64,000 nucleotides of DNA from Candidatus Poribacteria bacterium (GTDB lineage Bacteria > Poribacteria > WGA-4E > PCPOR2b), in the NCBI GenBank assembly GCA_003635265.1, contig PYIZ01000010.1, forward strand, positions 258,626 to 322,625. Reading direction: 5' to 3'. Positions 3,132 to 33,384 of the stretch are shown piece after piece (the first letter of the stretch is position 1; each line of letters begins with the position of its first letter). The notes beneath the pieces were generated by a model, which saw only the letters and a program-made list of their open reading frames with translations, was not told the DNA's origin and made no database searches. A program made the position numbers and the translations under genes.

Positions 3132-4487
3132 ATGCCAAAACCAACGACTAGCTTAACTTTTTCAATACTCATCACCCTCTGTACTGTCATCACACTAATC
3201 TTCGGACAAACCGCCTCCGCTCAAGATAAACTCGTCATTATATCGCCACACTGGGAAGGCATCGAAACAGAATTCGACACCGCCTTTAAGGCGTGGTATG
3301 TCAAGGAAACAGGACGCGAAGTCACTACAGATTGGCTCGATCAGGGCGGATCGTCTTCCGACTTTCGGTTCATCGAATCCGAATTCAAGCGGCTGCCCGA
3401 AGGAATCGGGATAGATCTCTTTTTCGGTGGCGGGACAGACAACTACCTCAAACTCGCTGCGAAAGGGTTGCTGGCTCCCTACAAACTACCAGAAGCCCAA
3501 CTGGCACGAATCCCGAAAGAAATTTTTGGCATTCCCGTCTATGACCCAGAATACCGTTGGTACGGTGCAGCACTGTCAAGTTTTGGGATTATGTATAACG
3601 AGGACTTACGTGCTCTGTTTAGTCTACCCGAAATCCACACGTGGAAAGACCTGACACACCCTGAACTCATCAACCGTGTCGGCGCAGCGGATCCCCGTGA
3701 AAGTGGGAGCGCCCACATGATGTACGAACTTATCCTGCAAGGTTACGGCTGGGAGGAAGGCTTTGAATTAATTACGCAGCTCGGTGCGAATGTCAGGGGA
3801 TTTTCCGCAGGGTCAAATGCAATCCCCGCTGATGTTGGGATGGGACAGGTCATCTACGGTATGGCAATTGACTTCTACGCGTTCGGTAAGATTGCCGAAA
3901 TCGGTGCAGATAAAATTCATTACGTTGTGCCACCCGATGCCGCTGTTGTCAGTCCCGACTCAATCGCCATCCTGAAAGGCGCACCCAATATGGAGGTCGC
4001 CCAGAAATTCCTCGATTTTGTTCTTTCCGATCAAGCACAAAAACTGTGGGTGTTGCGCGACACCGATCCAGAAGGACCGAAGTGGAAAGGAGGGTTGAAC
4101 CGTAGCAGCGTTATCCCTGCGTTGTACGATGAACTTGGGGACCGCTGTGTCGCCGCCAATCCGTTTGAGTTGGATCTGACTCCTATTGACTACGATGCGG
4201 TAAAAGGTGGGATACGTTGGGACATCGTCGGGGATCTTATCGGTGCGCTTGTCATTGAACCGCACAGAGATTTGGTCAGCGCATGGAAAGCCATTAATAA
4301 AAGCAAAGATCCAGCGAAACGTGCCGCAGCGATTCAGATCTTGGGTCAGGTGCCAATCACAGAGGCGGAAGCACTAGAATTGTCTCGGGCGAAGTGGCAA
4401 ATGCCAGACTTCCGAAATCAGAAGCTGAAGGAATGGAGAGCATTTGCTAAAGAAAAGTTCAAGGAAGCGAAGAAAGCAGCAAAATGA
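3132..4487 (+). CDS. ABC transporter periplasmic substrate-binding protein (family 1-like)
   Basis: 451 aa with a signal peptide ending ASAQD. The pattern KLVIISPHWEGIETEFDTAFKAWY... is typical of extracellular solute-binding proteins. Confidence 0.7.
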   Translation: MPKPTTSLTFSILITLCTVITLIFGQTASAQDKLVIISPHWEGIETEFDTAFKAWYVKETGREVTTDWLDQGGSSSDFRFIESEFKRLPEGIGIDLFFGGGTDNYLKLAAKGLLAPYKLPEAQLARIPKEIFGIPVYDPEYRWYGAALSSFGIMYNEDLRALFSLPEIHTWKDLTHPELINRVGAADPRESGSAHMMYELILQGYGWEEGFELITQLGANVRGFSAGSNAIPADVGMGQVIYGMAIDFYAFGKIAEIGADKIHYVVPPDAAVVSPDSIAILKGAPNMEVAQKFLDFVLSDQAQKLWVLRDTDPEGPKWKGGLNRSSVIPALYDELGDRCVAANPFELDLTPIDYDAVKGGIRWDIVGDLIGALVIEPHRDLVSAWKAINKSKDPAKRAAAIQILGQVPITEAEALELSRAKWQMPDFRNQKLKEWRAFAKEKFKEAKKAAK

Positions 4488-4522
4488 TAAGGTGCACCCG
4501 GCCTTTACGACGATTTAGGATC

Positions 4523-4613
4523 TCTGTAGGGGCAACCCTCGTGGTTGCCCTCCTGTAGGTCGATTTTCCAAAATCGACATTCTTTTGTCGAGATATGAAT
4601 CTCGACCTACAGG
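4523..4613. repeat. palindromic repeat cluster: GGGCAACC..GGTTGCCC hairpin plus a TGTAG...CTACA element
   Basis: 4552-4613 has perfect 12-nt terminal inverted repeats (CCTGTAGGTCGA / TCGACCTACAGG) enclosing two internal hairpins. The architecture matches the elements at 20584, 33133, 54220 and 54289. Confidence 0.6.
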
Positions 4614-4666
4614 TTGAGTATAGCTTGCTCGCCCTATAACCCCAACGGGACAGCAGGGATATTTTC

Positions 4667-4737
4667 GCTCCAGAGGAGCGATATGTATATAGCAGTGTTG
4701 AATCCCCACAACCTCAAAGCCCCAGCGGGGCGACATG
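4667..4737 (-). repeat. paired 20-nt hairpin motif (ACATrTCGCyCCnCTGGrGC x2, 51-nt spacing)
   Basis: Motif copies lie at 4667-4686 and 4718-4737 when read on the minus strand. The same pair with the same 51-nt spacing occurs at 33314-33384 on the plus strand. Confidence 0.55.
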
Positions 4738-4848
4738 TGTATCGAAACACACCATCCTCATAGGTCCGGCGTCTTTGACCTACGACAATCCGCATTGATC
4801 CAACCTACAGTGCCCTGCCACATAGGGCAATCAAGAGCTTAATTGCTT

Positions 4849-5691
4849 TTAAGTTATCCTCCCTATGGCTTCACATATCGTGGCAATGTATCTGCGAAAT
4901 TGAAGCAGAAGGATTTCCTGGTCTTCCCTTGACCAACTTTGCCTGATGCTTTGGGGGTGCCCTGCTTTGTTTCGGTTCTTACGATATAGAGTCCCTAAAC
5001 CGTCTAACAGTTCCTTCAACTCCCCGGCGAATTCCTCGTCAATTGCAAAAATCATGGGAATAACACTATGGGATAGATATTCGGTTAGGTCTGATATGTT
5101 CCCTTTCCTTCTTGTTTCAATTTTTCGTCGATACTTTTCAGAGTAAGATTCTATAGATTCTGCCAACCAGTGTATAGCCCTTTCCGAAGCGGCACCAAGG
5201 CAAATCACAGACGAGATGTATAGTCCCTTTTGGTAAGCGCGTAGACTTTCGATGTAGTATTGCCTAACGACAGGATCAAGGTCCCAGCTAACTCTCTGCT
5301 CAAGTGCACCGACAATTTTTTCGGGCTTATCCACCAAAAGGATTACTTCGTCATCAATTCTAGACTTTATGCCGACAGACGTGAGAAAAATGTAATACTT
5401 GTGGGACCCCATCATGTTGTGCGGATAAGAGCAGATGTCCTTCGCCACTAATCCTCGTCTTTCAAGCAAGGTGATTGCTTCCAATAGATGGGTATAATCG
5501 GAGCACGAACGTCCTCCTCTTTCACCGGGAAACAATACATTCCATAAGCCGTCGACAGAATGATAGAAATCTTGACCATCAGGCTCAGAATCAGGATTGT
5601 CCTTCAGATAACGAAATACAACTGTTGCCAGAGATTCAACATCCAACTCTCTGTGCTGCTGCTTTTCTGCCTCAGTGAAGCTGGTAGGCAT
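4849..5691 (-). CDS. hypothetical protein with C-terminal HEPN-like domain (R-x4-H motif)
   Basis: 280 aa. The C-terminal ~130 aa is helical and contains LYRKNRNKAGHP (RNKAGH = R-N-x3-H), as in HEPN/Abi-type RNase domains. AGGAGA lies 8 nt upstream of the ATG. The gene is AT-rich. Confidence 0.55.
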   Translation of the reverse strand: MPTSFTEAEKQQHRELDVESLATVVFRYLKDNPDSEPDGQDFYHSVDGLWNVLFPGERGGRSCSDYTHLLEAITLLERRGLVAKDICSYPHNMMGSHKYYIFLTSVGIKSRIDDEVILLVDKPEKIVGALEQRVSWDLDPVVRQYYIESLRAYQKGLYISSVICLGAASERAIHWLAESIESYSEKYRRKIETRRKGNISDLTEYLSHSVIPMIFAIDEEFAGELKELLDGLGTLYRKNRNKAGHPQSIRQSWSREDQEILLLQFRRYIATICEAIGRIT

Positions 5692-5795
5692 TGACTATTA
5701 TCTCCTTTCTGCTCAAATTCATACTTGCCCTTTTTTAGGTTCTCTGCTTGTTGATTAATCTCACGGGGTTCCTGGCCTATCATATTTTTTTCACC

Positions 5796-7229
5796 TCACG
5801 CTAACTGTATTTCATACTTGCGAATATCACCTGTCTCTGGAGAGTAATATGCCTGATAAAACTTGAAATCGGTCCGATTCTTTTGCGCGCACTTTCTTTG
5901 AATGATGTCGATGATTTTTAATTTTTGCTCATCAGATGTCTTGAGTCCAAAAATAACGCCTGTCAGCGAGTTGAAGTCGTAGGTTAGTGCACGGTCCTTC
6001 TCATCGTCGAATTGCCTCAAGCCATCTTCTAGGATTAGGCGGCACTCCTGTTCATACTCCCAATCCTTGGTCTTAACAGTAATATCACGGTAGAAACTAC
6101 TCCAATGTCTTTCTCGCCAATCAACCATTTCATCGCTATCTATGTCACCATCAAGTGGAATATGGGAGGCGCATTCAGAACTATTGCCTACCTCATCAGT
6201 GTACCAATGTTCCTTTGCATCCTTACCTGTCAACCTGCCAATGGATCTGAAGAAGTCAACCTCGTCCGGTTTATCTGCATATCTTATCTCTGACAACCGT
6301 ATTGCTCTAGCGTTTTTACCTGTCTCGTAAAATAACTCTAAACCGTTAGAGTCGCCCATTGTTTTAGATGCAAAAATCAAGCATGCCCCCTTATGGTTAT
6401 CTGCATAATGCCCCCATACAGAGGAATTGTAGTAATATTTCATAAAGCAGGCGGTGTACCACTGAGGGCCAAGCAGTCTCTCAAGCTCTTTCAAATATAC
6501 CATGGGAAAATCGACAAACACTATTTGACGATTATTCCAATATTCTTCACTTGGAATCAGTTGTTTGTGTTGCTGAATAAACCTTTGGCTCTGAAGCCTG
6601 TTCCTATAATCTATCACTGCAATTTGCTGCAAGGCAATGTTAATTTTGTCCTCAGTACGTGCTTCGTCAAACGTTTTTATCGATTTAAGAATTGTTTCAC
6701 ATATGCGCCGTACCGATAATTCTTCAGCCAGCGGAGTCTCTTGAGATTCGGGTATACGGCCATGTGCAATATATGTGTCTATGATTTCAGGAAGAAAGAA
6801 TGGGTGTATCATTTGAAGATAAAATTTAAGCTCTATGTATCGGATTGGGCGATTTGAGTTTGACAGTGCTTCAATAATCTCTGGGATATATGGTAGGCTA
6901 GAAAACCTGTCCCAAACATCATTGAACAATCTGCGTGCGTCGGGAGTTGGCAGGTGATTCCAGCCGTATAGGATTGGAAGGCGACCTTGTTCGAATTCTT
7001 TAGAGCTCAGGGTTATTTCAGGTCCAAGACATCTTACATGCAGACAAAGAACGTAATTTTTAAAAAAATTAGTCCAGACAATCTTATCTCCTCTCCACAC
7101 AATATCCCGGAATCCTTCCATTGGATCATTTAGTTGGTCAGGACTAGCGAAATAGATTGTCTGTTTCTCAAGCTCTTGATATTCATCTCCTAACAGATAG
7201 TCCATGCTTCTGAATCTGTATAATTTCAT
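5796..7229 (-). CDS. DUF2971 family protein with ~200-aa insertion
   Basis: All three blocks I associate with DUF2971 are present: LYRFRS...IYFASPDQLNDPMEGF, SVWGHYADNHKGACLIF and KDWEYEQECRLIL. AGGAG is upstream of the ATG and a TTGACA hexamer (minus strand, 7266-7271) lies in the 52-nt gap after modC. Confidence 0.75.
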   Translation of the reverse strand: MKLYRFRSMDYLLGDEYQELEKQTIYFASPDQLNDPMEGFRDIVWRGDKIVWTNFFKNYVLCLHVRCLGPEITLSSKEFEQGRLPILYGWNHLPTPDARRLFNDVWDRFSSLPYIPEIIEALSNSNRPIRYIELKFYLQMIHPFFLPEIIDTYIAHGRIPESQETPLAEELSVRRICETILKSIKTFDEARTEDKINIALQQIAVIDYRNRLQSQRFIQQHKQLIPSEEYWNNRQIVFVDFPMVYLKELERLLGPQWYTACFMKYYYNSSVWGHYADNHKGACLIFASKTMGDSNGLELFYETGKNARAIRLSEIRYADKPDEVDFFRSIGRLTGKDAKEHWYTDEVGNSSECASHIPLDGDIDSDEMVDWRERHWSSFYRDITVKTKDWEYEQECRLILEDGLRQFDDEKDRALTYDFNSLTGVIFGLKTSDEQKLKIIDIIQRKCAQKNRTDFKFYQAYYSPETGDIRKYEIQLA

Positions 7230-7281
7230 AGGTGATGCTCCTGCAATCTGATTAGGTATTTAATTTGTCAACAGGTTCCCC

Positions 7282-8361
7282 TTACCCCTCCCAAAGGAGA
7301 TTAATCGCACTCGCCTTAATAATAAAATAACACACCGTCCCCTCTGCAAGCCCAAGCTGCTCACGGGCATCGCCCGTAACCTCAACCGACAACAGATGCC
7401 CCTCAATGTCCACCGACAGCATCACACGCCCCGCTTGAACAGCAGCCCCCCGGATTGTCCCGCGCAAAATATTCCGCGCACTCATCCGCAGATCCGGATC
7501 CATCGCAACAATGATATCCCGCGCCCTGATAGCGATCGGCATCGTTGCGCCGGGCTCCGTCTCCGTATACGAAACCATCAATCTCTGCTCTCCCAACGCC
7601 AATTCCGTCACACCGCGTTCCTCCGACGCAACGACCACCGGCAAAGCGAGAATATTCTCCACACCCGTCATCTGGGCAACAGGCAATGCCGAAGGAGAAG
7701 CGAGCAGTTCATGGGGTTCCCCACGCGCCGTTATCTGACCATCGGAGAGCAGAAACGCTTCATCTGCAAGCGCCATCACTTCTGAAATGGAATGGGTAAC
7801 GTAGAGGAGGGGTATGTCAAACGCCTGTTTAATGTGATAAAGATAGGGCAGAATGCGGTTCTTCAAGCCCGCATCCAGAGAGGTAAGCGGCTCATCCATT
7901 AACAGCAAGCGCGGTGACATCCCCAAAGCGCGCGCAATGGCGACGCGCTGCCGTTGACCGCCGGAAAGCTGGTTCGGATACCGATCCAGCAATTCACCAA
8001 TTTCAAGAATGTCGATAATTGTATTGGAGTCAATCTGGTTATTACCATTAGGGCTGCGGGGACGACCATACGAAATATTCTGTCGAACCGTCAGGTGCGG
8101 AAAAAGATACCCTTCCTGAAAGACATATCCGAAACGACGCTTTTCTGGTGGCAGACACCTTTTCTGCTGGGAAGAATACAGGGTTTGACCGGAGAACAGC
8201 AGTTCCCCATCGTCAGGGTTCAAGATACCACTAACACAATTCAGTAGCGTGCTTTTGCCACTTCCCGACGGTCCCAGAAATGCCGTTACCTTCTCGGTAA
8301 TCGTATGATCAATCTCAAGCTGAAAGTTGCCAAGACGCTTGCGAAAACTGAGTTTTAACAT
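7282..8361 (-). CDS. modC: molybdate ABC transporter ATP-binding protein with C-terminal TOBE/Mop-like domain
   Basis: Walker A GPSGSGKST, signature LSGGQRQR and Walker B LLLMDEP are present. The 359-aa length allows a C-terminal extension. It follows modA-modB. Confidence 0.85.
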   Translation of the reverse strand: MLKLSFRKRLGNFQLEIDHTITEKVTAFLGPSGSGKSTLLNCVSGILNPDDGELLFSGQTLYSSQQKRCLPPEKRRFGYVFQEGYLFPHLTVRQNISYGRPRSPNGNNQIDSNTIIDILEIGELLDRYPNQLSGGQRQRVAIARALGMSPRLLLMDEPLTSLDAGLKNRILPYLYHIKQAFDIPLLYVTHSISEVMALADEAFLLSDGQITARGEPHELLASPSALPVAQMTGVENILALPVVVASEERGVTELALGEQRLMVSYTETEPGATMPIAIRARDIIVAMDPDLRMSARNILRGTIRGAAVQAGRVMLSVDIEGHLLSVEVTGDAREQLGLAEGTVCYFIIKASAINLLWEG

Positions 8362-8373
8362 GGTACATAATGC

Positions 8374-9039
8374 CTATTTCTTAATATACAACCGCTCCGC
8401 TATCCACAACGTCCCAAAAGCGATCAAGGTGGATAGAAACACCAAACGGTACGCACTCAGATCCTGACCGATCTGCACAAAGTTATAAATTGCCAGCGGC
8501 AATGTCTGCGTTTTGCCCGGAATGTTCCCCGCTACCATCATCGTCGCACCGAATTCGCCGAGACTCCGAGAAAATCCCATAATCGCTCCCCCGATAATCC
8601 CACGGTACGATAGAGGCAGCGTAACAGTAAAAAACACCTTCAACGGCGAGGCACCGAGCGTCCTTGCGGCATTCTCCAGTTGTGTGTCCACACTCTCCAT
8701 CGCCGTGACGATACCGCGCACCAGTAGCGGAAACGAAAGCACAGAGATCGCCAACACCACCGCCAGCCACGAAAAGACAATTTCAAGCCCAAAAAGTCGA
8801 AAGAGCAGCCCCCCAATTGGTCCGCGTTTACTCAGGAGAATCAGAAGGAAAAAACCGCTGACAACGGGTGGCAACACCATCGGCAGCATGACAACGGTAT
8901 TTAGGAGCGATTTGCCGGGGAATGAGAACTTGGCGAGGATCCAGCCGATCAGGAGTCCGAGAGGAAGGATGAAAAGCAGACTCAACAAGGCGGCTTTGAT
9001 AGATAAAACCAGCGCACTGACTTCCGCTGCTGTTAGCAT
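8374..9039 (-). CDS. modB: molybdate ABC transporter permease
   Basis: 221 aa, polytopic, with an EAA-like loop (ENAARTLGASPLKVFFTVTLP). The start overlaps the modA stop. Confidence 0.85.
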   Translation of the reverse strand: MLTAAEVSALVLSIKAALLSLLFILPLGLLIGWILAKFSFPGKSLLNTVVMLPMVLPPVVSGFFLLILLSKRGPIGGLLFRLFGLEIVFSWLAVVLAISVLSFPLLVRGIVTAMESVDTQLENAARTLGASPLKVFFTVTLPLSYRGIIGGAIMGFSRSLGEFGATMMVAGNIPGKTQTLPLAIYNFVQIGQDLSAYRLVFLSTLIAFGTLWIAERLYIKK

Positions 9040-9791
9040 TAGTTCACCACAGAGAAACCGTATTTTTCAAAGATTGCTGCAGCTTCGGCGGTTTGTAGGT
9101 AGTCTAAGAAGGCTTGAGCGAGAACTTTACTTCTGGTATCTCGGAGCACCGCTGCCGGATACACAATCGGGGAATGACTTGAGTCGGGAAATTGATAGAT
9201 AACCTTGACCTTTTTACTGAGCCTTGCGTCTGTTTGATAGACAATCCCGAGGTCAACCTCGCCAGATTCCACATACGCCAAAGTGGATCGAACATCGGCA
9301 CTAGGGATCAACTTCGGCTGTACAGCATCCCAAACCCCCAAGTGGGTCAAAGCCTCTTTCCCATAAATTCCAGCAGGAACTGAATTTGGTTCCCCGATAG
9401 CAATCCGTCGAATCGAGTCTTGGGGGAGCAGCCTCGCATCAGTTATGGCAAGCGAACTAGTGACAGGTGCCACCAATACCAATCGGTTGCTCAAAATCCC
9501 TTGGCGCGAACCGTCATAAAGTAGTCCTGCCTCTTGTAACGCATCCATCTGCCTAGGACTGGCAGAGATGAATACATCCGCTGGTGCACCTTTCTCGATT
9601 TGGCGTTGTAACGTGGAAGAACCGGCAAAGTTACAATATACCTTGACATTCCGCACCTCACCAAAACGCTGGCTGACCTCGGTGAGTGCGTCAGTCAAAC
9701 TCATCGCGCCAAAGATAACCAATTCCTCGCCCGAACAACCGATTAACAGATAAACAAAACTCAGAAAAATAAGCAGATGCAGTGTCATCAA
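9039..9791 (-). CDS. modA: molybdate ABC transporter substrate-binding protein
   Basis: 250 aa with a lipoprotein-like signal (LLIGCSG). ModA-like pattern: VFGAMSLTDAL...VYCNFAGSSTLQRQIEKGAPADVFISA. Confidence 0.85.
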   Translation of the reverse strand: MMTLHLLIFLSFVYLLIGCSGEELVIFGAMSLTDALTEVSQRFGEVRNVKVYCNFAGSSTLQRQIEKGAPADVFISASPRQMDALQEAGLLYDGSRQGILSNRLVLVAPVTSSLAITDARLLPQDSIRRIAIGEPNSVPAGIYGKEALTHLGVWDAVQPKLIPSADVRSTLAYVESGEVDLGIVYQTDARLSKKVKVIYQFPDSSHSPIVYPAAVLRDTRSKVLAQAFLDYLQTAEAAAIFEKYGFSVVN

Positions 9792-27181: not shown

Positions 27182-27820
27182 ATGGAAAAGCAGCAAATCA
27201 TAATGGAATTGGAGTTTTCCGAATATGAAGCGTTGCGCCAAGAAATTATAGCAAATGCCGGGATAATCGCTGATGTTTTCACCATAAGTATTACAGCGGC
27301 AGTTGTGATCCTCGGATATGGCGTTCAGAGGGAGCAGGAAACGGAGGGCGATACAGGTAGTTGGCTTCTGTTTCTGTGTCCTCTTGCGATATTGGCTCCC
27401 TCACTATGGTTTATATCCTCACAATTGGAGTCAACGGTACGAATTGCGACATATATTCAGACGTTCATTGAGACAGGGCAGGATGTGCTGAATTGGGAGA
27501 CGAGACTCTCGCTATTGCGCCAAGCTGGTACAAGTTCCGGTACGCTGTACACATTTTCAATTTCAACTGTATATATGGGATTAGGCCTAGTTTCATTGGT
27601 TCTTTCGATCTGTTATGTGTTCAAGAATAAACGAGAAACAAGAGCCAGAATTGTCCGCATAGCATTTTGTTTGGCGTTGTTCGTCCCCATGGTGATCGCC
27701 TGCCATCAATTTAATATGCGATTAACCCCAAAATTTACCCAAGAGTATAAGGAAAAATGGGAAGCCGTGGGACGCTTGGAGAAGGAAAATAATGCACATT
27801 CACAACCCACGCTCAAATAA
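27182..27820 (+). CDS. hypothetical four-TM membrane protein (AT-rich gene)
   Basis: 212 aa with four hydrophobic helices and no motif I recognise. It overlaps the thiO start by 29 nt. One sampled 60-nt line is 35% GC. Confidence 0.5.
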   Translation: MEKQQIIMELEFSEYEALRQEIIANAGIIADVFTISITAAVVILGYGVQREQETEGDTGSWLLFLCPLAILAPSLWFISSQLESTVRIATYIQTFIETGQDVLNWETRLSLLRQAGTSSGTLYTFSISTVYMGLGLVSLVLSICYVFKNKRETRARIVRIAFCLALFVPMVIACHQFNMRLTPKFTQEYKEKWEAVGRLEKENNAHSQPTLK

Positions 27821-28943
27821 ACGAGTCATTATCGTCGGCGGCGGGGTCATCGGGCTCGGTATCGGCTGGCAGCTAGCAAAGGCAGGCTGCGCTGTTTCGA
27901 TCTATGAACGCGATCAAGCTGGACGCGCTGCGTCGTGGGCGGCAGCGGGCATGTTAGCACCACACGCGGAAGTTCATTTTGAGGAACGTGCCCTCCTCAG
28001 ATTGGGCGTTCAAAGTTGCCGAATGTACCCGGAGTGGGTTGTCGAGTTAGAATCCGATAGTCAGATGAGCGTCGGTTATCGGGCAGAGGGAACACTTATC
28101 GTCGGAGTAGATCGGGACGATGCACGAGAGTTGGGACACCTCTATGAGTCCCAACAACTCCTGGACCTGAAAGTGGAGTGGATTACCGGCGTAGAGGCTC
28201 GTGAGATAGAGCCACTGCTCTCCCCTAAAATCACCGCCGCCATTTGGAGTAGGGACGACCATCAGGTTGACAACCGAGCAATGGTTGATGCACTGATTCG
28301 GGCATATCGAAATGCGCACGGGATACTTCACGAAAATACTCCTGTTGAGAAAATTGAGGTCGTCAACGGAAAGGCAGAAGGGATTTGGGTTAAAGGTAAT
28401 TTAGAAGAAGCCGATGTCATTGTGCTAGCGGCGGGCTGCTGGTCGAACGATATTGACGGCTTGCCGAAAGCCGTGCAACCACCTGTCCGTCCGGTCAAAG
28501 GACAGATGCTCGCATTGCAGATGGAAGAAGGGATCGTTCTGCAAAAAGTTATCCGTGCACCACGTGCCAAGTATCCGACCGATGTTTATTTGGTCCCGAA
28601 AGATAACGGACGCTTGGTGATCGGTGCAACGAATGAAGAGATGGATTTCGACACACGCCTTACAGCGGGGGGCTTATTTGAACTCCTCAGAGGCACATGG
28701 GAAGCTGTTCCGGGCATATATGATCTTCCTGTTCTGGAGACATGGACCGGCTTGCGCCCCGGCAGTCGAGACAACGCACCGATTCTCGGCGAAACAAGCG
28801 TCGAAAATCTGATTATGGCAACCGGACACTACCGCAACGGCATTCTGCTCACCCCCGTCACCGCCCGTGAAATAGCTTCACTCATCTTAACAGGCGAAAA
28901 TTCAGAAACTATCGCACCTTTTCAACTGTCTCGATTTTCATAA
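27792..28943 (+). CDS. thiO: glycine oxidase (FAD-dependent), thiamine biosynthesis
   Basis: FAD fold VIIVGGGVIGLGIGWQLAKAG, DAO-family length, and context immediately upstream of thiS. Confidence 0.8.
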   Translation: MHIHNPRSNKRVIIVGGGVIGLGIGWQLAKAGCAVSIYERDQAGRAASWAAAGMLAPHAEVHFEERALLRLGVQSCRMYPEWVVELESDSQMSVGYRAEGTLIVGVDRDDARELGHLYESQQLLDLKVEWITGVEAREIEPLLSPKITAAIWSRDDHQVDNRAMVDALIRAYRNAHGILHENTPVEKIEVVNGKAEGIWVKGNLEEADVIVLAAGCWSNDIDGLPKAVQPPVRPVKGQMLALQMEEGIVLQKVIRAPRAKYPTDVYLVPKDNGRLVIGATNEEMDFDTRLTAGGLFELLRGTWEAVPGIYDLPVLETWTGLRPGSRDNAPILGETSVENLIMATGHYRNGILLTPVTAREIASLILTGENSETIAPFQLSRFS

Positions 28944-29190: not shown

Positions 29191-30054
29191 ATGAAAGCCT
29201 TGGAAAAGGGAAATCATCTGATAATCTGGGGGGATACCCTTGATGCTTTGTCGAGCAAAATTCCTGATAGCTCAGTAGATTTAATCTTTACAGATCCTCC
29301 CTACAACATTGGCAAAAACTTCAATGGCAGAAAGGATAAGTGGAGTTCTGAGGAGGCGTACCTCGAATGGTGCTACCAGTGGATTGATCTTTGTCTCCGT
29401 AAGTTAAAAGACAAAGGCAGCTTCTATCTCATGGCTGCCACTCAAAATATGCCCTATTTTGACATCTACCTTCGGGATAAAATCTGCATTCTTTCTCGTA
29501 TAATTTGGTCTTACGATAGTTCGGGGGTCCAAGCCAAGAAATATTACGGCTCTCTATATGAACCGATTCTTTTCTGCGTAAAAGATAGGCAGCAATACAC
29601 TTTTAACGCTGATGATATTCTCGTTGAGGCAAAGACAGGGGCAAAGCGTAAATTAATCGATTACCGAAAGCAGGTTCCCACACAATACAGTTCAAGAAAA
29701 GTGCCGGGGAATGTTTGGGAATTTCCGCGTGTCCGCTACAGAATGGAGGAGTACGAAGAACATCCAACTCAGAAACCCGTTGCATTGCTTGAACGAATTG
29801 TTCGGGCAAGTTCAAACCCCGGCGATCTCATCCTTGACCCCTTCGCTGGTACATTTACAACATGTTTTGTCGCGAAAAAATTGGGGCGTCAATCAATCGG
29901 AATAGAGATAGAGGAAGATTACGTCAAAATTGGGTTGAGAAGACTTCAAATAATGACACATTATAGAGGGGAAGAATTGAAACGAGAACCTCGCTCTTAT
30001 GAGGAACAGGCGAACCCAACCCAACAGACCCTCAAGTTATTCGAGGGAAACTAG
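29191..30054 (+). CDS. DNA methyltransferase, beta-class (DPPY; N6-adenine or N4-cytosine)
   Basis: Motif IV TDPPYNIG precedes motif I ILDPFAGTFTTCFVAKKLGR, which is the beta-class order. The gene is AT-rich. Confidence 0.85.
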   Translation: MKALEKGNHLIIWGDTLDALSSKIPDSSVDLIFTDPPYNIGKNFNGRKDKWSSEEAYLEWCYQWIDLCLRKLKDKGSFYLMAATQNMPYFDIYLRDKICILSRIIWSYDSSGVQAKKYYGSLYEPILFCVKDRQQYTFNADDILVEAKTGAKRKLIDYRKQVPTQYSSRKVPGNVWEFPRVRYRMEEYEEHPTQKPVALLERIVRASSNPGDLILDPFAGTFTTCFVAKKLGRQSIGIEIEEDYVKIGLRRLQIMTHYRGEELKREPRSYEEQANPTQQTLKLFEGN

Positions 30055-31173
30055 ATGGAACACGAATTTACGCAGCAAATTCATGTTGTTTTGCGCTCCG
30101 ATTTTGGCGAAGCAGCAGAAGATATTTTTGAGAAAAGCGAACTCTTGCAGTACCTCAATCTCAAAACCAGATCCGCCACGCGTGGATCAAAAGCAAGAGG
30201 TAGCTTTGCCAATCTTTACGCACTCTACGTGTTAATCGAAGATTACCTTAACCACGGATTTGATGAAAAAGGCAACTACTCAAATTATCAAGGGGCAGCA
30301 TTTACAGACTTATTTAAGCGTCAAAGAGAATTGCCTTTTGGTAATAAGCTGCAGAATCATGCGCTCAACCACCGCATGAACAGCGATTTTCGGAAGTATT
30401 TTCCACAAACCGAGTATATCCCAATTTTACGCGATGTTGAAACAAAGCGTTATTGGATCAATGAAAATCTCCTAAACTTTTCCGTTGCAGGCGATTCGCA
30501 CAATATTGCAAGATCTATTATCAGTATCGTAAATCGCTATATAGAGACGAAGCGGAGTGCATTTGAGGCATTTATTCAAACGTGCGAACGTTTGAAAAGC
30601 ATTAACGAAGAGAGTATAGAAAATGTAGAAGCATTTATTGAAAGCCTCCTCGAACCAAACGCAGATGCACGTATCTTCGAAATTGTCAGTTATGCCATCC
30701 TAAAGTATTACTATAGCAATCAAACCGTTTATTTCGGTTTTGATCTGGAGAGCGTAGAGGAAGAAAACCTCACACTCTATAAAACTGGTCGCACCAATGC
30801 CAATGATGGCGGTATAGACTTTGTTATGCGTCCATTGGGCAGATTTTTTCAAGTGACAGAAACTCTAGACGTAAGAAAATACTTTTTGGATATCGATAAA
30901 ATTGAACGCTATCCTATATCCTTTGTCATCAAATCCGAGGAATCTATTGATGTGCTCAGGCAAAGACTCCAAGCGGGAGCAGAAAAACAGTACCTTATAA
31001 CGGCTATAGTCAGGAAATACATGAATTGTGTTGAAGAAATCATCAATATTCCTGTTTTGAAAAATAGGTTTAATGAGGCGGTGCAGGAAGGCTATTTGCA
31101 GAGTATTCTCGATGAGGTGATTAAACAAAGTAAAGTCGAGTTTAACTATGAAGAGCCGGCTGATACCGTTTGA
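30055..31173 (+). CDS. putative type II restriction endonuclease partner of the methyltransferase
   Basis: The ATG directly abuts the methyltransferase TAG. A possible PD-(D/E)xK-like core is ARIFEIVSYAIL...NANDGGIDFVMRP...FQVTE. One sampled line is 33% GC. I cannot name a specific family. Confidence 0.5.
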   Translation: MEHEFTQQIHVVLRSDFGEAAEDIFEKSELLQYLNLKTRSATRGSKARGSFANLYALYVLIEDYLNHGFDEKGNYSNYQGAAFTDLFKRQRELPFGNKLQNHALNHRMNSDFRKYFPQTEYIPILRDVETKRYWINENLLNFSVAGDSHNIARSIISIVNRYIETKRSAFEAFIQTCERLKSINEESIENVEAFIESLLEPNADARIFEIVSYAILKYYYSNQTVYFGFDLESVEEENLTLYKTGRTNANDGGIDFVMRPLGRFFQVTETLDVRKYFLDIDKIERYPISFVIKSEESIDVLRQRLQAGAEKQYLITAIVRKYMNCVEEIINIPVLKNRFNEAVQEGYLQSILDEVIKQSKVEFNYEEPADTV

Positions 31174-31224: not shown

Positions 31225-32001
31225 ATGGAAGGACTCAAAATTGGTGATACCCTATATCAATCACGACTACTAATCGGCACAGCCGGTTACCCCAATTTCG
31301 ACCTGATGATGCGGTCACTCGAAGCAAGCGGTGCAGAGATCGCCACCGTTGCCATGCGCCGGGTGAAACTCAGCGATGCCTCAGGTGAAAATCTGTTCAA
31401 TCTCCTCCGTGAGAAGGGATATACAATTTTACCGAACACCTCCGGCTGCTTCACCGCAAAAGACGCCCTGTTGACAGCACAACTCGCACGTGAAGCACTC
31501 GATACCTCACTCATCAAGTTGGAAGTTATCGGCGACGACCAAACCCTGTTTCCCGATGTTGAGCAGTTGTTACCCGCAGCCGCAACGCTGGTCAAAGATG
31601 GGTTCACTGTGCTGCCCTACTGCAACGATGATCCGATTACGTGCAAGAAGTTGGAAGATATCGGGTGTGCAACGGTGATGCCGCTAGGGGCACCAATCGG
31701 TTCAGGCATGGGCATCCGCAATCCGTACAATATCCAGATTATCCGTGACATCGTGAGCGTCCCTGTGATTGTCGATGCGGGGGTTGGGACCGCCTCCGAC
31801 GCAGCGATTGCAATGGAACTCGGCTGCGACGGCGTCCTGCTCAGTACCGCAGTCGCCAAAGCCCGTCAACCGGTCCTGATGGCAACCGCCATGCGAAAAG
31901 CGGTAGAGGCAGGCAGAGCAGCATTTTTGGCAGGACGGATTCCGAGAAAACTCTACGCAACAGCGTCGAGTCCTTTGGAAGGTATGATTGGTCAAGAATA
32001 A
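31225..32001 (+). CDS. thiG: thiazole synthase
   Basis: 258 aa with [18 protein letters not shown] and [11 protein letters not shown] motifs typical of ThiG. Confidence 0.9.
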
Positions 32002-33313: not shown

Positions 33314-33384
33314 ACATGTCGCCCCTCTGGGGCTTGGAAGGAGGGACCTATTGCCCGGCTATAGACATATCGCCCCTCTGGGGC
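33314..33384 (+). repeat. paired 20-nt hairpin motif (51-nt spacing)
   Basis: ACATGTCGCCCCTCTGGGGC at 33314-33333 and ACATATCGCCCCTCTGGGGC at 33365-33384. This is the counterpart of 4667-4737. Confidence 0.55.

What the first reader, a model, noticed from the sequence alone, without database searches (positions are those of the whole stretch)
4849..7281. AT-rich two-gene cassette (DUF2971 protein + HEPN-like protein) appended to modABC: candidate undescribed defence/toxin module
Seen in sequence: two co-oriented genes sit directly after modC, separated by a 104-nt gap, each with its own Shine-Dalgarno sequence. A TTGACA hexamer lies in the 52-nt gap after modC. Single 60-nt lines count 42% GC at 5821 and 62% GC at 7501 (modC), so the cassette looks foreign. 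The 477-aa protein carries the three blocks I associate with DUF2971 (N-terminal LYRFRS..FASPDQLNDPMEGF, WGHYADNHKGACLIF, KDWEYEQECRLIL), split by a ~200-aa insert. The 280-aa protein ends in a helical domain with RNKAGH, an R-x4-H motif with Asn after Arg as in HEPN RNases and Abi proteins. The 3' flank (4523-4737) holds the same two repeat families found in the leuC-associated cassette. Inference: HEPN domains are recurrent effectors of abortive-infection and toxin systems, and I know of no named system pairing DUF2971 with HEPN. The pair may therefore be a sensor/effector module.
Basis: partly seen in the sequence, partly recalled or inferred. Interest (0 to 1): 0.75.

Follow-up and report, generated by a model that had tools for sequence, protein, structure and literature searches.

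The report
Two separate defence genes after modC
Behind the molybdate transporter genes of this sponge-symbiont (Poribacteria) genome sit two fast-evolving, low-GC genes, a DUF2971 ADP-ribosyltransferase-like protein of a family already linked to phage defence and an undescribed DNA-binding/HEPN predicted RNase, and they look like two independent immune genes sharing a small island, not one new two-part system.

Summary
Both ORFs, the 52- and 104-nt gaps, the Shine-Dalgarno sites, the TTGACA hexamer and the GC dip (0.42 against 0.49 for the window) are all there. Gene A (477 aa) is a long-form DUF2971 protein. It passes the Pfam threshold and matches the PADLOC single-gene candidate PDC-S31 (E 4e-24). 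Published work predicts DUF2971 to be a DarT/AbiGi-like ADP-ribosyltransferase, and the single-gene lactococcal system Aristaios carries it.

Gene B (280 aa) matches no Pfam, NCBIfam, PADLOC or PDB sequence. Its family (690 representatives at E <= 0.001) has invariant R240 and H245 within RNxAGHP, plus invariant E170. Some distant members hit HEPN-clan Pfam models, and the model places the motif where HEPN domains carry it. The N-terminal half is a PadR/MarR-like winged helix.

The A-B pairing was found only at this one syntenic site in Poribacteria. Elsewhere B lacks A: at the same site, beside other genes, next to integrases, and in defence islands including an Agrobacterium plasmid. A-type genes lack B on plasmids of four bacterial genera, two of them within or beside type I R-M genes, and as TPR fusions.

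Best reading: a small defence islet with two autonomous genes. B is a new HEPN variant. An obligate sensor/effector pair is not supported.

The parts
7230..7281 (-). 52-nt modC-to-A spacer with TTGACA (7271-7266) and a GGAG Shine-Dalgarno site (7241-7238)
   Evidence: Read directly from the sequence. No paired -10 hexamer was found by the promoter scan.
5796..7229 (-). Gene A, 477 aa: long-form DUF2971 protein, predicted ADP-ribosyltransferase-like defence effector (PDC-S31 / Aristaios domain family)
   Evidence: Pfam PF11185 E 1.2e-8, above the cut-off. PADLOC PDC-S31 E 3.9e-24. phrog_1762 E 8e-32. Invariant Y275, H279, E393 and E395 (the ExE motif) across 30 homologues of 46-73% identity. 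The ART assignment of DUF2971 comes from PMC12522546 and PMC11381338.
5692..5795 (-). 104-nt A-to-B spacer. Its B-proximal ~58 nt (5692-5749) form a leader conserved upstream of B paralogues whatever gene lies upstream
   Evidence: Alignment A5 of 11 loci. No terminator-like site on the coding strand within the spacer. No Rfam match.
5362..5691 (-). Gene B residues 1-110: PadR/MarR-like winged helix-turn-helix domain, the faster-evolving half of the protein
   Evidence: The family profile matches PadR-family structures at E 7e-4 to 4e-3. The AF2 model shows helix 63-78 followed by strands 82-86 and 99-103. Mean pairwise identity is 51% for this half against 73% for the C-terminal half.
4849..5286 (-). 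Gene B residues 136-280 plus the stop codon: HEPN-type helical domain, predicted metal-independent RNase
   Evidence: AF2 model of the domain has pLDDT 91.9. G166, E170, R240 and H245 are invariant in 88 family members down to 20% identity. Twelve Pfam hits among the 88 family members to the HEPN-named families DUF4145, HEPN_RiboL-PSP and HEPN_Apea, best E 2e-6. HEPN structures 4nqf, 2hsb and 1wol appear among weak Foldseek hits, as does 2q00, which I recall as HEPN.
4957..4974 (-). Codons for R240-N-K-A-G-H245, the R-x4-H motif with Asn after Arg
   Evidence: R240 and H245 are invariant; N241, G244 and P246 are at least 90% conserved. In the model the motif sits at the end of helix 219-238 and the start of the loop to the last helix, which is the position PMC3710099 describes for HEPN domains.
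4488..4848 (.). Convergent intergenic flank between B and the solute-binding-protein gene (3132-4487, +). It holds hairpins at 4529-4550 and 4552-4613 and two REP-like hairpins at 4667-4685 and 4719-4737
   Evidence: The 73-aa ORF 4515-4736(-) overlaps these repeats and is probably not a gene (inference).

Best explanation
The stretch between modC and the convergent solute-binding-protein gene is a small, old, fast-evolving defence islet of Poribacteria holding two autonomous single-gene immune modules. Gene A is a long-form DUF2971 protein. By inference from its family it is an ADP-ribosyltransferase-like effector, held inactive until infection, that then modifies nucleic acid or an essential protein and aborts phage growth. 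Gene B is a member of an undescribed winged-helix + HEPN family. By inference it dimerises through the HEPN domain, uses the variable N-terminal PadR-like domain to bind a nucleic-acid or protein cue or to repress its own leader, and once activated cleaves RNA through the R240/H245 site. Shown here: the domain assignments, the conservation of the motifs, the separate occurrence of the two genes, and their defence-island neighbours. Inferred: the enzymatic activities, the triggers and the anti-phage phenotype.
For: Gene A: Pfam DUF2971 above threshold and PADLOC PDC-S31, a single-gene candidate, at E 3.9e-24. Y275 and the E393-x-E395 motif are invariant. Full-length homologues of 34-40% identity stand alone on plasmids: inside a type I R-M operon next to Fic (Arcobacter), near type I R-M and an integrase (Zymomonas), near Fic (Komagataeibacter) and on a small Clostridium plasmid, none with a B-like neighbour. 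A 51%-identical TPR-fused paralogue lies among TIR-TPR and SMC_N genes without B. Aristaios shows that a DUF2971 gene alone gives abortive-type phage resistance (PMC11381338, PMC13064643). Gene B: the HEPN evidence is, and the wHTH evidence. B occurs without A in many places. At the same site, L001 and L015 carry B with no A remnant by tblastn. In L002 and L024 it sits beside a DUF6236-like gene next to Eco57I/MmeI-type R-M genes, with PDC-M41A also nearby in L002. In L023 it lies in a TIR/ThsB_TIR/Fic/HD island. It also lies next to integrases or integrase remnants. On an Agrobacterium vitis plasmid it lies between UvrD/PD-(D/E)XK genes and AbiE and CBASS genes. A ~58-nt leader travels with B whatever lies upstream. 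Between genomes the flanking modB, modC and SBP genes are 88-93% identical, but A is 46-73% and B 58-70% identical. Both keep low GC in every genome, as expected of arms-race genes.
Against: At the modC site A and B stay adjacent, co-oriented and 60-104 nt apart in six divergent genomes, and no coding-strand terminator was detected between them, so co-transcription and cooperation are possible. At that site A was never seen without B, whereas B was seen without A. B itself gives no direct hit to any HEPN model, and Foldseek matches to solved HEPN structures are not significant (E > 0.5). No experiment exists for either gene. Only about 15 distinct contexts were sampled.
Confidence: 0.55

Rival explanations
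1. A and B form one cooperative two-gene system. In this reading B senses infection or regulates through its wHTH domain and adds an RNase arm, while A is the ADP-ribosylating effector. More generally, B would be a common partner for interchangeable upstream effectors (DUF2971 here, a DUF6236-like protein elsewhere).
For: A-B adjacency with a short spacer is conserved in six genomes even though A has diverged to 46-73% identity. At least 37 of 120 B clusters share a contig length with one of the listed A clusters, some of them contigs of only 3-8 kb. A second recurrent upstream partner, the DUF6236-like protein, lies 79 nt from B in two genomes. HEPN-ART operons have been noted before for the pEK499_p136 family (PMC3710099), and a DUF2971 + Abi_C operon in PMC12522546.
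Against: All A-B pairs lie at one orthologous site, so they count as one event. B persists there without A (L001, L015). The P0068 fusion shows A being deleted while B is kept. A-type genes elsewhere never have a B-like neighbour. B relatives elsewhere never have a DUF2971 neighbour. The homology unit of B begins about 58 nt upstream of its ATG and does not include A.
Confidence: 0.2
2. The pair is a toxin-antitoxin-like module in DarT-DarG gene order: A is the ART toxin, and B is its antidote or transcriptional repressor acting through the wHTH domain.
For: DUF2971 is reported to be similar to DarT and AbiGi (PMC12522546), and in those systems the ART-like gene comes first (established knowledge). 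B has a DNA-binding-type domain and follows A.
Against: A-type genes exist alone on plasmids with no conserved downstream partner, so no dedicated antidote is needed. B lacks a macrodomain or any ADP-ribose hydrolase signature. B keeps an invariant catalytic-type R/H/E set, which suits an enzyme better than a simple repressor. B is widespread without A.
Confidence: 0.07
3. The genes are not immunity genes. A is a symbiosis effector ART aimed at the sponge host or at competitors, and B is an ordinary PadR-like regulator with a non-catalytic helical domain that controls neighbouring genes such as modABC or the ABC solute-binding gene.
For: About 18% of DUF2971 proteins are predicted secreted effectors (PMC12522546). 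Poribacteria are sponge symbionts (the record names give the organism; the lifestyle is established knowledge). B is nearly always present beside the SBP gene at this locus.
Against: By eye A's N-terminus (MKLYRFRS...) shows no signal peptide. B paralogues sit in unrelated places rich in R-M, TIR, Fic, AbiE, CBASS, transposase and integrase genes. The flanks are 88-93% identical while A and B are hypervariable, which is atypical for a housekeeping regulator. The invariant R-x4-H plus Glu argues for catalysis.
Confidence: 0.1

Closest known systems
PADLOC PDC-S31 / Aristaios (single-gene DUF2971 anti-phage systems)
   Same: Gene A carries the DUF2971 domain, matches four PDC-S31 HMMs (best E 3.9e-24), and keeps the conserved Tyr and ExE residues reported for the family. 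Its relatives sit as single genes in defence contexts. Aristaios is a tested single-gene abortive-type system with an ART-like predicted fold (PMC11381338).
   Different: A is 477 aa against 316 aa for Aristaios, with about 200 aa of extra helical sequence between the N-terminal block and the Pfam core. No Lactococcus plasmid matched A by tblastn at E 1e-3, so the relation is at domain level only. There is no phenotype for A or for any Poribacteria gene.
DarT / AbiGi ADP-ribosyltransferase-like toxins
   Same: DUF2971 is reported to be significantly similar to the DarT, AbiGi and Tox-ART-HYD1 families (PMC12522546). As in DarTG and AbiG, A is the upstream gene of a co-oriented pair.
   Different: No macrodomain (DarG) or AbiGii-type nucleotidyltransferase partner is present. 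A-type genes occur alone. The ART fold of A was not modelled here.
HEPN superfamily, nearest the DUF4145, RiboL-PSP-HEPN and ApeA-like families
   Same: B has an invariant R-x4-H motif with Asn after Arg, an invariant Glu in the preceding long helix, a helical bundle with a helical insert, and a defence-island and R-M neighbourhood. Some distant family members hit these three Pfam models. Single-protein HEPN defence enzymes such as ApeA and DARNA are activated by infection cues and cut tRNA (bioRxiv 10.64898/2026.01.26.701840 and 10.64898/2026.02.22.705581).
   Different: B itself hits none of those models, nor PADLOC ApeA. It has a ~110-aa PadR-like wHTH in place of the ~300-aa beta-rich ApeA-NTD1 or the Pds5-like C-domain of DARNA. 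No Pfam or NCBIfam model covers the family.
HEPN-MNT (HepT/MntA) toxin-antitoxin pairs
   Same: A HEPN RNase-type domain on mobile or defence DNA.
   Different: No adjacent minimal nucleotidyltransferase is present. B is twice the size of HepT and carries a wHTH domain. Its partner here is an ART-like gene.
pEK499_p136-like HEPN family
   Same: PMC3710099 describes it as sometimes lying in operons with R-M genes, ART-like enzymes and Macro domains, which is a precedent for HEPN-ART neighbourhoods.
   Different: Neither B nor any of the 88 family members scanned hit that Pfam family.

Membership tests
Pfam DUF2971 (PF11185) | Score above the curated gathering threshold | tested here: met
   36.5 bits against a cut-off of 22, residues 272-398. 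The orthologue in L003 also passes.
PADLOC PDC-S31 | Match to the PDC-S31 HMMs; a single-gene candidate | tested here: met
   Four PDC-S31 models hit, best E 3.9e-24 in three stretches. The L003 orthologue scores 1e-22. Relatives stand alone.
ADP-ribosyltransferase superfamily (DUF2971 clade as described in PMC12522546) | Strictly conserved Tyr in motif II and two Glu in the ExE motif III | tested here: met
   Y275, E393 and E395 are invariant in 30 homologues. That these columns correspond to motifs II and III is my own reading of the paper's description.
ADP-ribosyltransferase superfamily | Split beta-sheet ART fold | not tested
Aristaios | Sequence relatedness beyond the shared domain, and an abortive-type phage-resistance phenotype | tested here: not met
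   No Lactococcus plasmid match at E 1e-3. The phenotype cannot be tested here.
HEPN superfamily | R-x4-6-H motif with a polar residue (N/D/H) after R | tested here: met
   R240-N-K-A-G-H245. R and H are invariant and N is at least 90% conserved in 88 sequences down to 20% identity.
HEPN superfamily | [quoted passage not shown] | tested here: met
   In the AF2 models helix 219-238 ends just before R240, and the last helix is 255-279. The domain model has pLDDT 91.9, with lower values (71-79) around the motif loop.
HEPN superfamily | Second conserved acidic residue in helix 2, typically E-x3-[KR] | tested here: inconclusive
   E170 is invariant within helix 158-183, but the +4 residue is His in the window protein, not K/R.
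HEPN superfamily | Significant profile match to a HEPN-clan model | tested here: inconclusive
   None for the window protein. Twelve hits among the 88 relatives to DUF4145 (6), HEPN_RiboL-PSP (3) and HEPN_Apea (3), best E 2e-6 to 5e-5. Weak full-domain DUF4145 alignments appear in 3 of 10 further members.
HEPN superfamily | Structural similarity to solved HEPN domains | tested here: inconclusive
   Foldseek against PDB gave no hit with E < 0.001. The entries 4nqf, 2hsb and 1wol, all labelled HEPN, appear with probability 0.47-0.63. Entry 2q00, which I recall as HEPN, has probability 0.90 and TM-score 0.61-0.64. Generic helical bundles score similarly.
HEPN superfamily | Metal-independent RNase activity | not testable with these tools
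   Needs biochemistry.
ApeA | ApeA-NTD1 (~300-aa beta-rich N-terminal domain) plus an Apea-type HEPN domain | tested here: not met
   B has a ~110-aa wHTH N-terminus and no PADLOC or Pfam Apea hit.
HEPN-MNT toxin-antitoxin | Adjacent minimal nucleotidyltransferase gene | tested here: not met
   None of the ORFs beside B in the window is a nucleotidyltransferase.
DarTG | Macrodomain antitoxin downstream of the ART | tested here: not met
   B has no macrodomain hit in Pfam, NCBIfam or PADLOC.
PadR/MarR-type winged-helix regulators (N-terminal domain of B) | Profile match to a wHTH and a helix-strand-strand wing | tested here: met
   The family profile matches PadR structures at E 7e-4 over profile positions 6-117. 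The model shows H63-78, E82-86 and E99-103. No Pfam PadR hit for the single sequence.

The most novel reading that the evidence does not exclude
The wHTH-HEPN protein is a portable common partner that couples to interchangeable neighbouring effectors. These would be the DUF2971 ART here, a DUF6236-like protein with a hydrophobic, glycine-rich C-terminus beside R-M genes, and a small membrane-anchored Gly-rich protein downstream in three other paralogue clades. In that case the modC cassette would be one instance of a new modular two-component immune architecture expanded in sponge symbionts.
Probability: 0.15. Interest if true: 0.6.

Novelty: new variant of a known kind. Interest (0 to 1): 0.35.

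Why it matters
Gene B defines a sizeable protein family that no Pfam, NCBIfam or PADLOC model covers: 690 representatives at 50% clustering, found here in Poribacteria, Agrobacterium and Mycobacterium. It has a clear catalytic-type signature (RNxAGHP) and, in the contexts sampled here, often lies beside defence or mobile-element genes. That makes it a cheap, well-defined candidate for a new single-protein HEPN defence enzyme whose sensor is a small winged helix. The locus also shows how Poribacteria keep a hypervariable immune islet inside an otherwise 90%-conserved housekeeping frame. For the pair as such the result is deflationary: gene A is a known candidate type, and the two-gene 'system' is probably a neighbourhood, not a machine.

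Tried and rejected
1. Direct family scans of B against Pfam, NCBIfam, PADLOC, PHROGs and PDB sequences gave nothing usable.
2. Foldseek with the whole B model, with the C-domain model against PDB and against BFVD gave no significant hit; the HEPN entries appear only as weak matches.
3. Metagenome (JGI) and viral contig scans for B relatives found nothing, and the wide alignment was too divergent to seed a scan.
4. tblastn of B against plasmids and of a distant relative against phages found nothing.
5. The look-up of P0002 was not on record.
6. The second homologue search, run with the family profile, returned mostly close Poribacteria sequences, so the genomic contexts of the truly distant members could be sampled only through two plasmids.
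7. I looked for a paralogue of A or B, or a remnant of the small downstream ORF, elsewhere in the window and found none.
8. I looked for an RNA element or tandem repeats that might act as an RNA antitoxin for the HEPN protein and found none.
9. I looked for a sigma-70 promoter using the TTGACA hexamer; it is not supported.
10. I searched papers for 'Dandelion' HEPN, after a weak PDB sequence hit at E 0.01 over 29 residues, and found nothing relevant.
11. I rejected the idea that the 200-aa 'insert' in A is a local peculiarity, because it is conserved in distant full-length homologues.
Full report
**What is there.** The window comes from a Candidatus Poribacteria genome: the 280-aa product is 100% identical to 'hypothetical protein C6502_03875 [Candidatus Poribacteria bacterium]'. 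On the minus strand run modA (9039-9791), modB (8374-9039) and modC (7282-8361; ABC_tran + TOBE). A 52-nt gap follows, then gene A (5796-7229, 477 aa), a 104-nt gap and gene B (4849-5691, 280 aa). After B comes a 361-nt hairpin-rich flank that meets a convergent ABC solute-binding-protein gene (3132-4487, +). Both genes have GGAG-type ribosome-binding sites. The TTGACA hexamer exists at 7271-7266, but it has no partner -10 hexamer and promoter-like sites are not in excess. The cassette has GC 0.422 against 0.493 +/- 0.021 for windows of the same size. It is one of only two such troughs in the 64 kb. The other trough, at 29.2-31.2 kb, holds an N6_N4 DNA methylase plus an unassigned ORF wedged between thiO and thiG, which is probably an R-M cassette.

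**Gene A.** It passes the Pfam DUF2971 threshold, matches four PADLOC PDC-S31 models (best E 3.9e-24) and matches phrog_1762. PMC12522546 assigns DUF2971 to the ADP-ribosyltransferase superfamily, close to DarT and AbiGi, with a conserved Tyr and an ExE motif. In 30 homologues of A, Y275, E393 and E395 are invariant. PMC11381338 and PMC13064643 show that Aristaios, a lactococcal DUF2971 gene, confers abortive-type resistance on its own and interferes with phage transcription. The long form is not a local oddity. Full-length homologues of 29-40% identity lie on plasmids of Arcobacter, Clostridium, Komagataeibacter, Zymomonas, Bacillus and a haloarchaeon. In the four plasmid contexts I inspected they sit as single genes: inside a type I R-M operon next to Fic, near a type I R-M and an integrase, near Fic, and on a small Clostridium plasmid. 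None has a wHTH-HEPN neighbour. A 51%-identical paralogue fused to TPR repeats sits among TIR-TPR and SMC_N genes, again without B.

**Gene B: what it is.** The single sequence hits nothing in Pfam, NCBIfam, PADLOC, PHROGs or PDB sequences. It does have 334 close homologues, and a profile finds 690 representatives at E <= 0.001.

- **Conserved residues.** Across 88 members down to 20% identity, only G166, E170, R240 and H245 are invariant. N241, G244 and P246 are nearly so, giving the hallmark RNxAGHP. The motif is also present in relatives on Agrobacterium and Mycobacterium plasmids.
- **Profile evidence.** Scanning the 88 members one by one gave twelve hits to HEPN-named Pfam families: DUF4145 (6), HEPN_RiboL-PSP (3) and HEPN_Apea (3), with best E values of 5e-6, 2e-6 and 5e-5. 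PMC3710099 places DUF4145 in the HEPN clan.
- **Structure.** A domain-only AlphaFold model (pLDDT 91.9) gives a helical bundle. E170 lies in the long second helix. A helical hairpin insert follows. The R-x4-H motif sits at the end of the next helix and the start of the loop to the last helix. That is the position and the accessory acidic residue PMC3710099 describes for HEPN domains.
- **Fold search.** Foldseek gives no significant PDB match. Three entries labelled HEPN (4nqf, 2hsb, 1wol), plus 2q00, which I recall as HEPN, recur among generic helical bundles.
- **N-terminal half.** The first ~110 residues match PadR/MarR winged-helix regulators by profile (E 7e-4) and in the model. This half evolves faster than the HEPN half (51% against 73% mean pairwise identity).

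I therefore file B as a new wHTH + HEPN family. The HEPN membership is well supported by motif and topology and only transitively by profiles.

**Is it a pair?** The arrangement modABC-A-B-SBP recurs in Poribacteria genomes (L003, L004-L011, L013/14, L016, L027). These loci are orthologous and share the same downstream cytochrome, amine-oxidase and GGT genes, so they count as one event.

- **Same site, B without A.** L001 has a zinc-ribbon ORF and a 727-nt gap. L015 has Exo_endo_phos and trypsin-LRR genes. tblastn finds no trace of A in either.
- **A being lost.** One homologue (P0068) is an in-frame fusion of the first ~45 residues of a DUF2971 protein to B, which is a deletion scar showing A lost and B kept.
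- **Other sites, B without A.** In two genomes B follows a DUF6236-like gene next to Eco57I/MmeI-type R-M genes; in L002 it also lies beside PDC-M41A and between two transposase copies. B also lies in a TIR/ThsB_TIR/Fic/HD island behind an IS200 transposase. It lies next to integrases or integrase remnants. It lies near transposases and an MNT gene. On an Agrobacterium plasmid it lies between UvrD/PD-(D/E)XK genes and AbiE and CBASS genes.
- **B travels with its own leader.** An alignment of the 120 nt upstream of B in 11 loci shows that about 58 nt of leader travel with B whatever gene lies upstream. B therefore behaves as its own unit.
- **A different recurrent partner.** In three other paralogue clades B is followed by a homologous small ORF with an N-terminal membrane or signal helix and Gly-rich repeats. 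That ORF is absent from the window.

**Evolutionary picture.** Between these genomes modB, modC and the SBP gene are 88-93% identical, whereas A is 46-73% and B 58-70% identical. Both keep a low GC content everywhere, and B alleles look mosaic. This is a hypervariable islet in a conserved frame, the pattern expected for immune genes that diversify or are swapped by recombination. Extra genes come and go in the same gap: a HicB-like ORF, a trypsin, a 249-aa ORF, and an IS605 TnpB within the mod operon.

**Verdict.**

- **Observation:** confirmed.
- **Interpretation:** partly supported. The domain calls and the defence flavour hold. 'Undescribed' fails for A, and a 'sensor/effector pair' is not supported beyond one syntenic locus.
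- **Most likely mechanism (confidence 0.55):** two autonomous modules. One is an ART-like abortive effector of the PDC-S31/Aristaios kind. The other is a wHTH-gated HEPN RNase resembling single-protein HEPN defences such as ApeA or DARNA, but not a member of either family.
- **Rivals:** a cooperative pair keeps about 0.2 because of the conserved short spacing and the absence of a detectable coding-strand terminator. A DarTG-like toxin-antitoxin reading (0.07) and a non-immune reading (0.1) are less likely.
- **Limits:** nothing here is experimental. The enzymatic activities, the triggers and the phenotype are all inferences.

Noticed in passing
window 29191-31173 (+), between 27792-28943 (DAO/thiO-like) and 31225-32001 (thiG): The second low-GC trough of the window (~0.42) holds an N6_N4 DNA methylase (287 aa) and a 372-aa ORF with no Pfam hit. 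It is probably a type II restriction-modification cassette inserted into the thiamine gene cluster.
   Followed up: partly
window 4667-4685, 4719-4737 (-) and 33315-33333, 33366-33384 (+): A REP-like hairpin motif, CATRTCGCYCCNCTGGRGC, occurs exactly four times, as two pairs about 50 nt apart: one pair downstream of gene B and one upstream of leuC (0.03 expected by chance).
   Followed up: partly
L017 6946-7419; L020 6959-7471; L021 6906-7427; L036 6957-7544: In three other paralogue clades (36-51% identical to B) the wHTH-HEPN gene is followed by a homologous 157-195-aa ORF with an N-terminal membrane or signal helix and Gly-rich repeats. These ORFs are 27-39% identical to each other and have no Pfam family. 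They may be the real recurrent partner of B.
   Followed up: partly
L002 4809-5921 and L024 5268-5921: A DUF6236-like protein (86% identical between the two genomes, with a hydrophobic Gly-rich C-terminus) lies 79 nt upstream of a B paralogue, next to Eco57I/MmeI-type methylase-nuclease genes. In L002 the pair is bracketed by two identical DDE transposase genes and followed by a strong PDC-M41A match.
   Followed up: partly
protein P0068 (311 aa): An in-frame chimera: the N-terminal ~45 residues of a DUF2971 protein (YRFRG..FASPDELNDPMEGF) are joined to B from about residue 17. This is a deletion that removed nearly all of A and the spacer.
   Followed up: no
L025 6001-8499 and neighbours; also P0425 and P0440: TPR-DUF2971 fusion proteins (738-832 aa, 51% identical to A over its full length) sit beside two TIR-TPR proteins, DUF433/DUF3368 genes and an SMC_N/AAA ATPase, which looks like a defence island.
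   Followed up: no
L004-L008, L013, L014, L027 (between modA and modB): In several related genomes an IS605 OrfB/TnpB (Cas12f-like) gene is inserted inside the mod operon between modA and modB. It is absent from the window.
   Followed up: no
L015 and L016 (contig ERZ25072670:ctg256859, 9.69 Mb): One contig carries two full copies of the modABC...SBP-cytochrome-oxidase-GGT locus, one with A+B and one with B only plus other genes. This is either a large duplication or a chimeric assembly of two strains.
   Followed up: no
alignment A1: B alleles look mosaic: P0008 shares its N-terminal half with P0005 and its C-terminal half with P0011. A and B are 46-73% identical between genomes whose flanking genes are 88-93% identical. 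Both points suggest recombination among paralogues or cassette swapping at a fixed site.
   Followed up: partly
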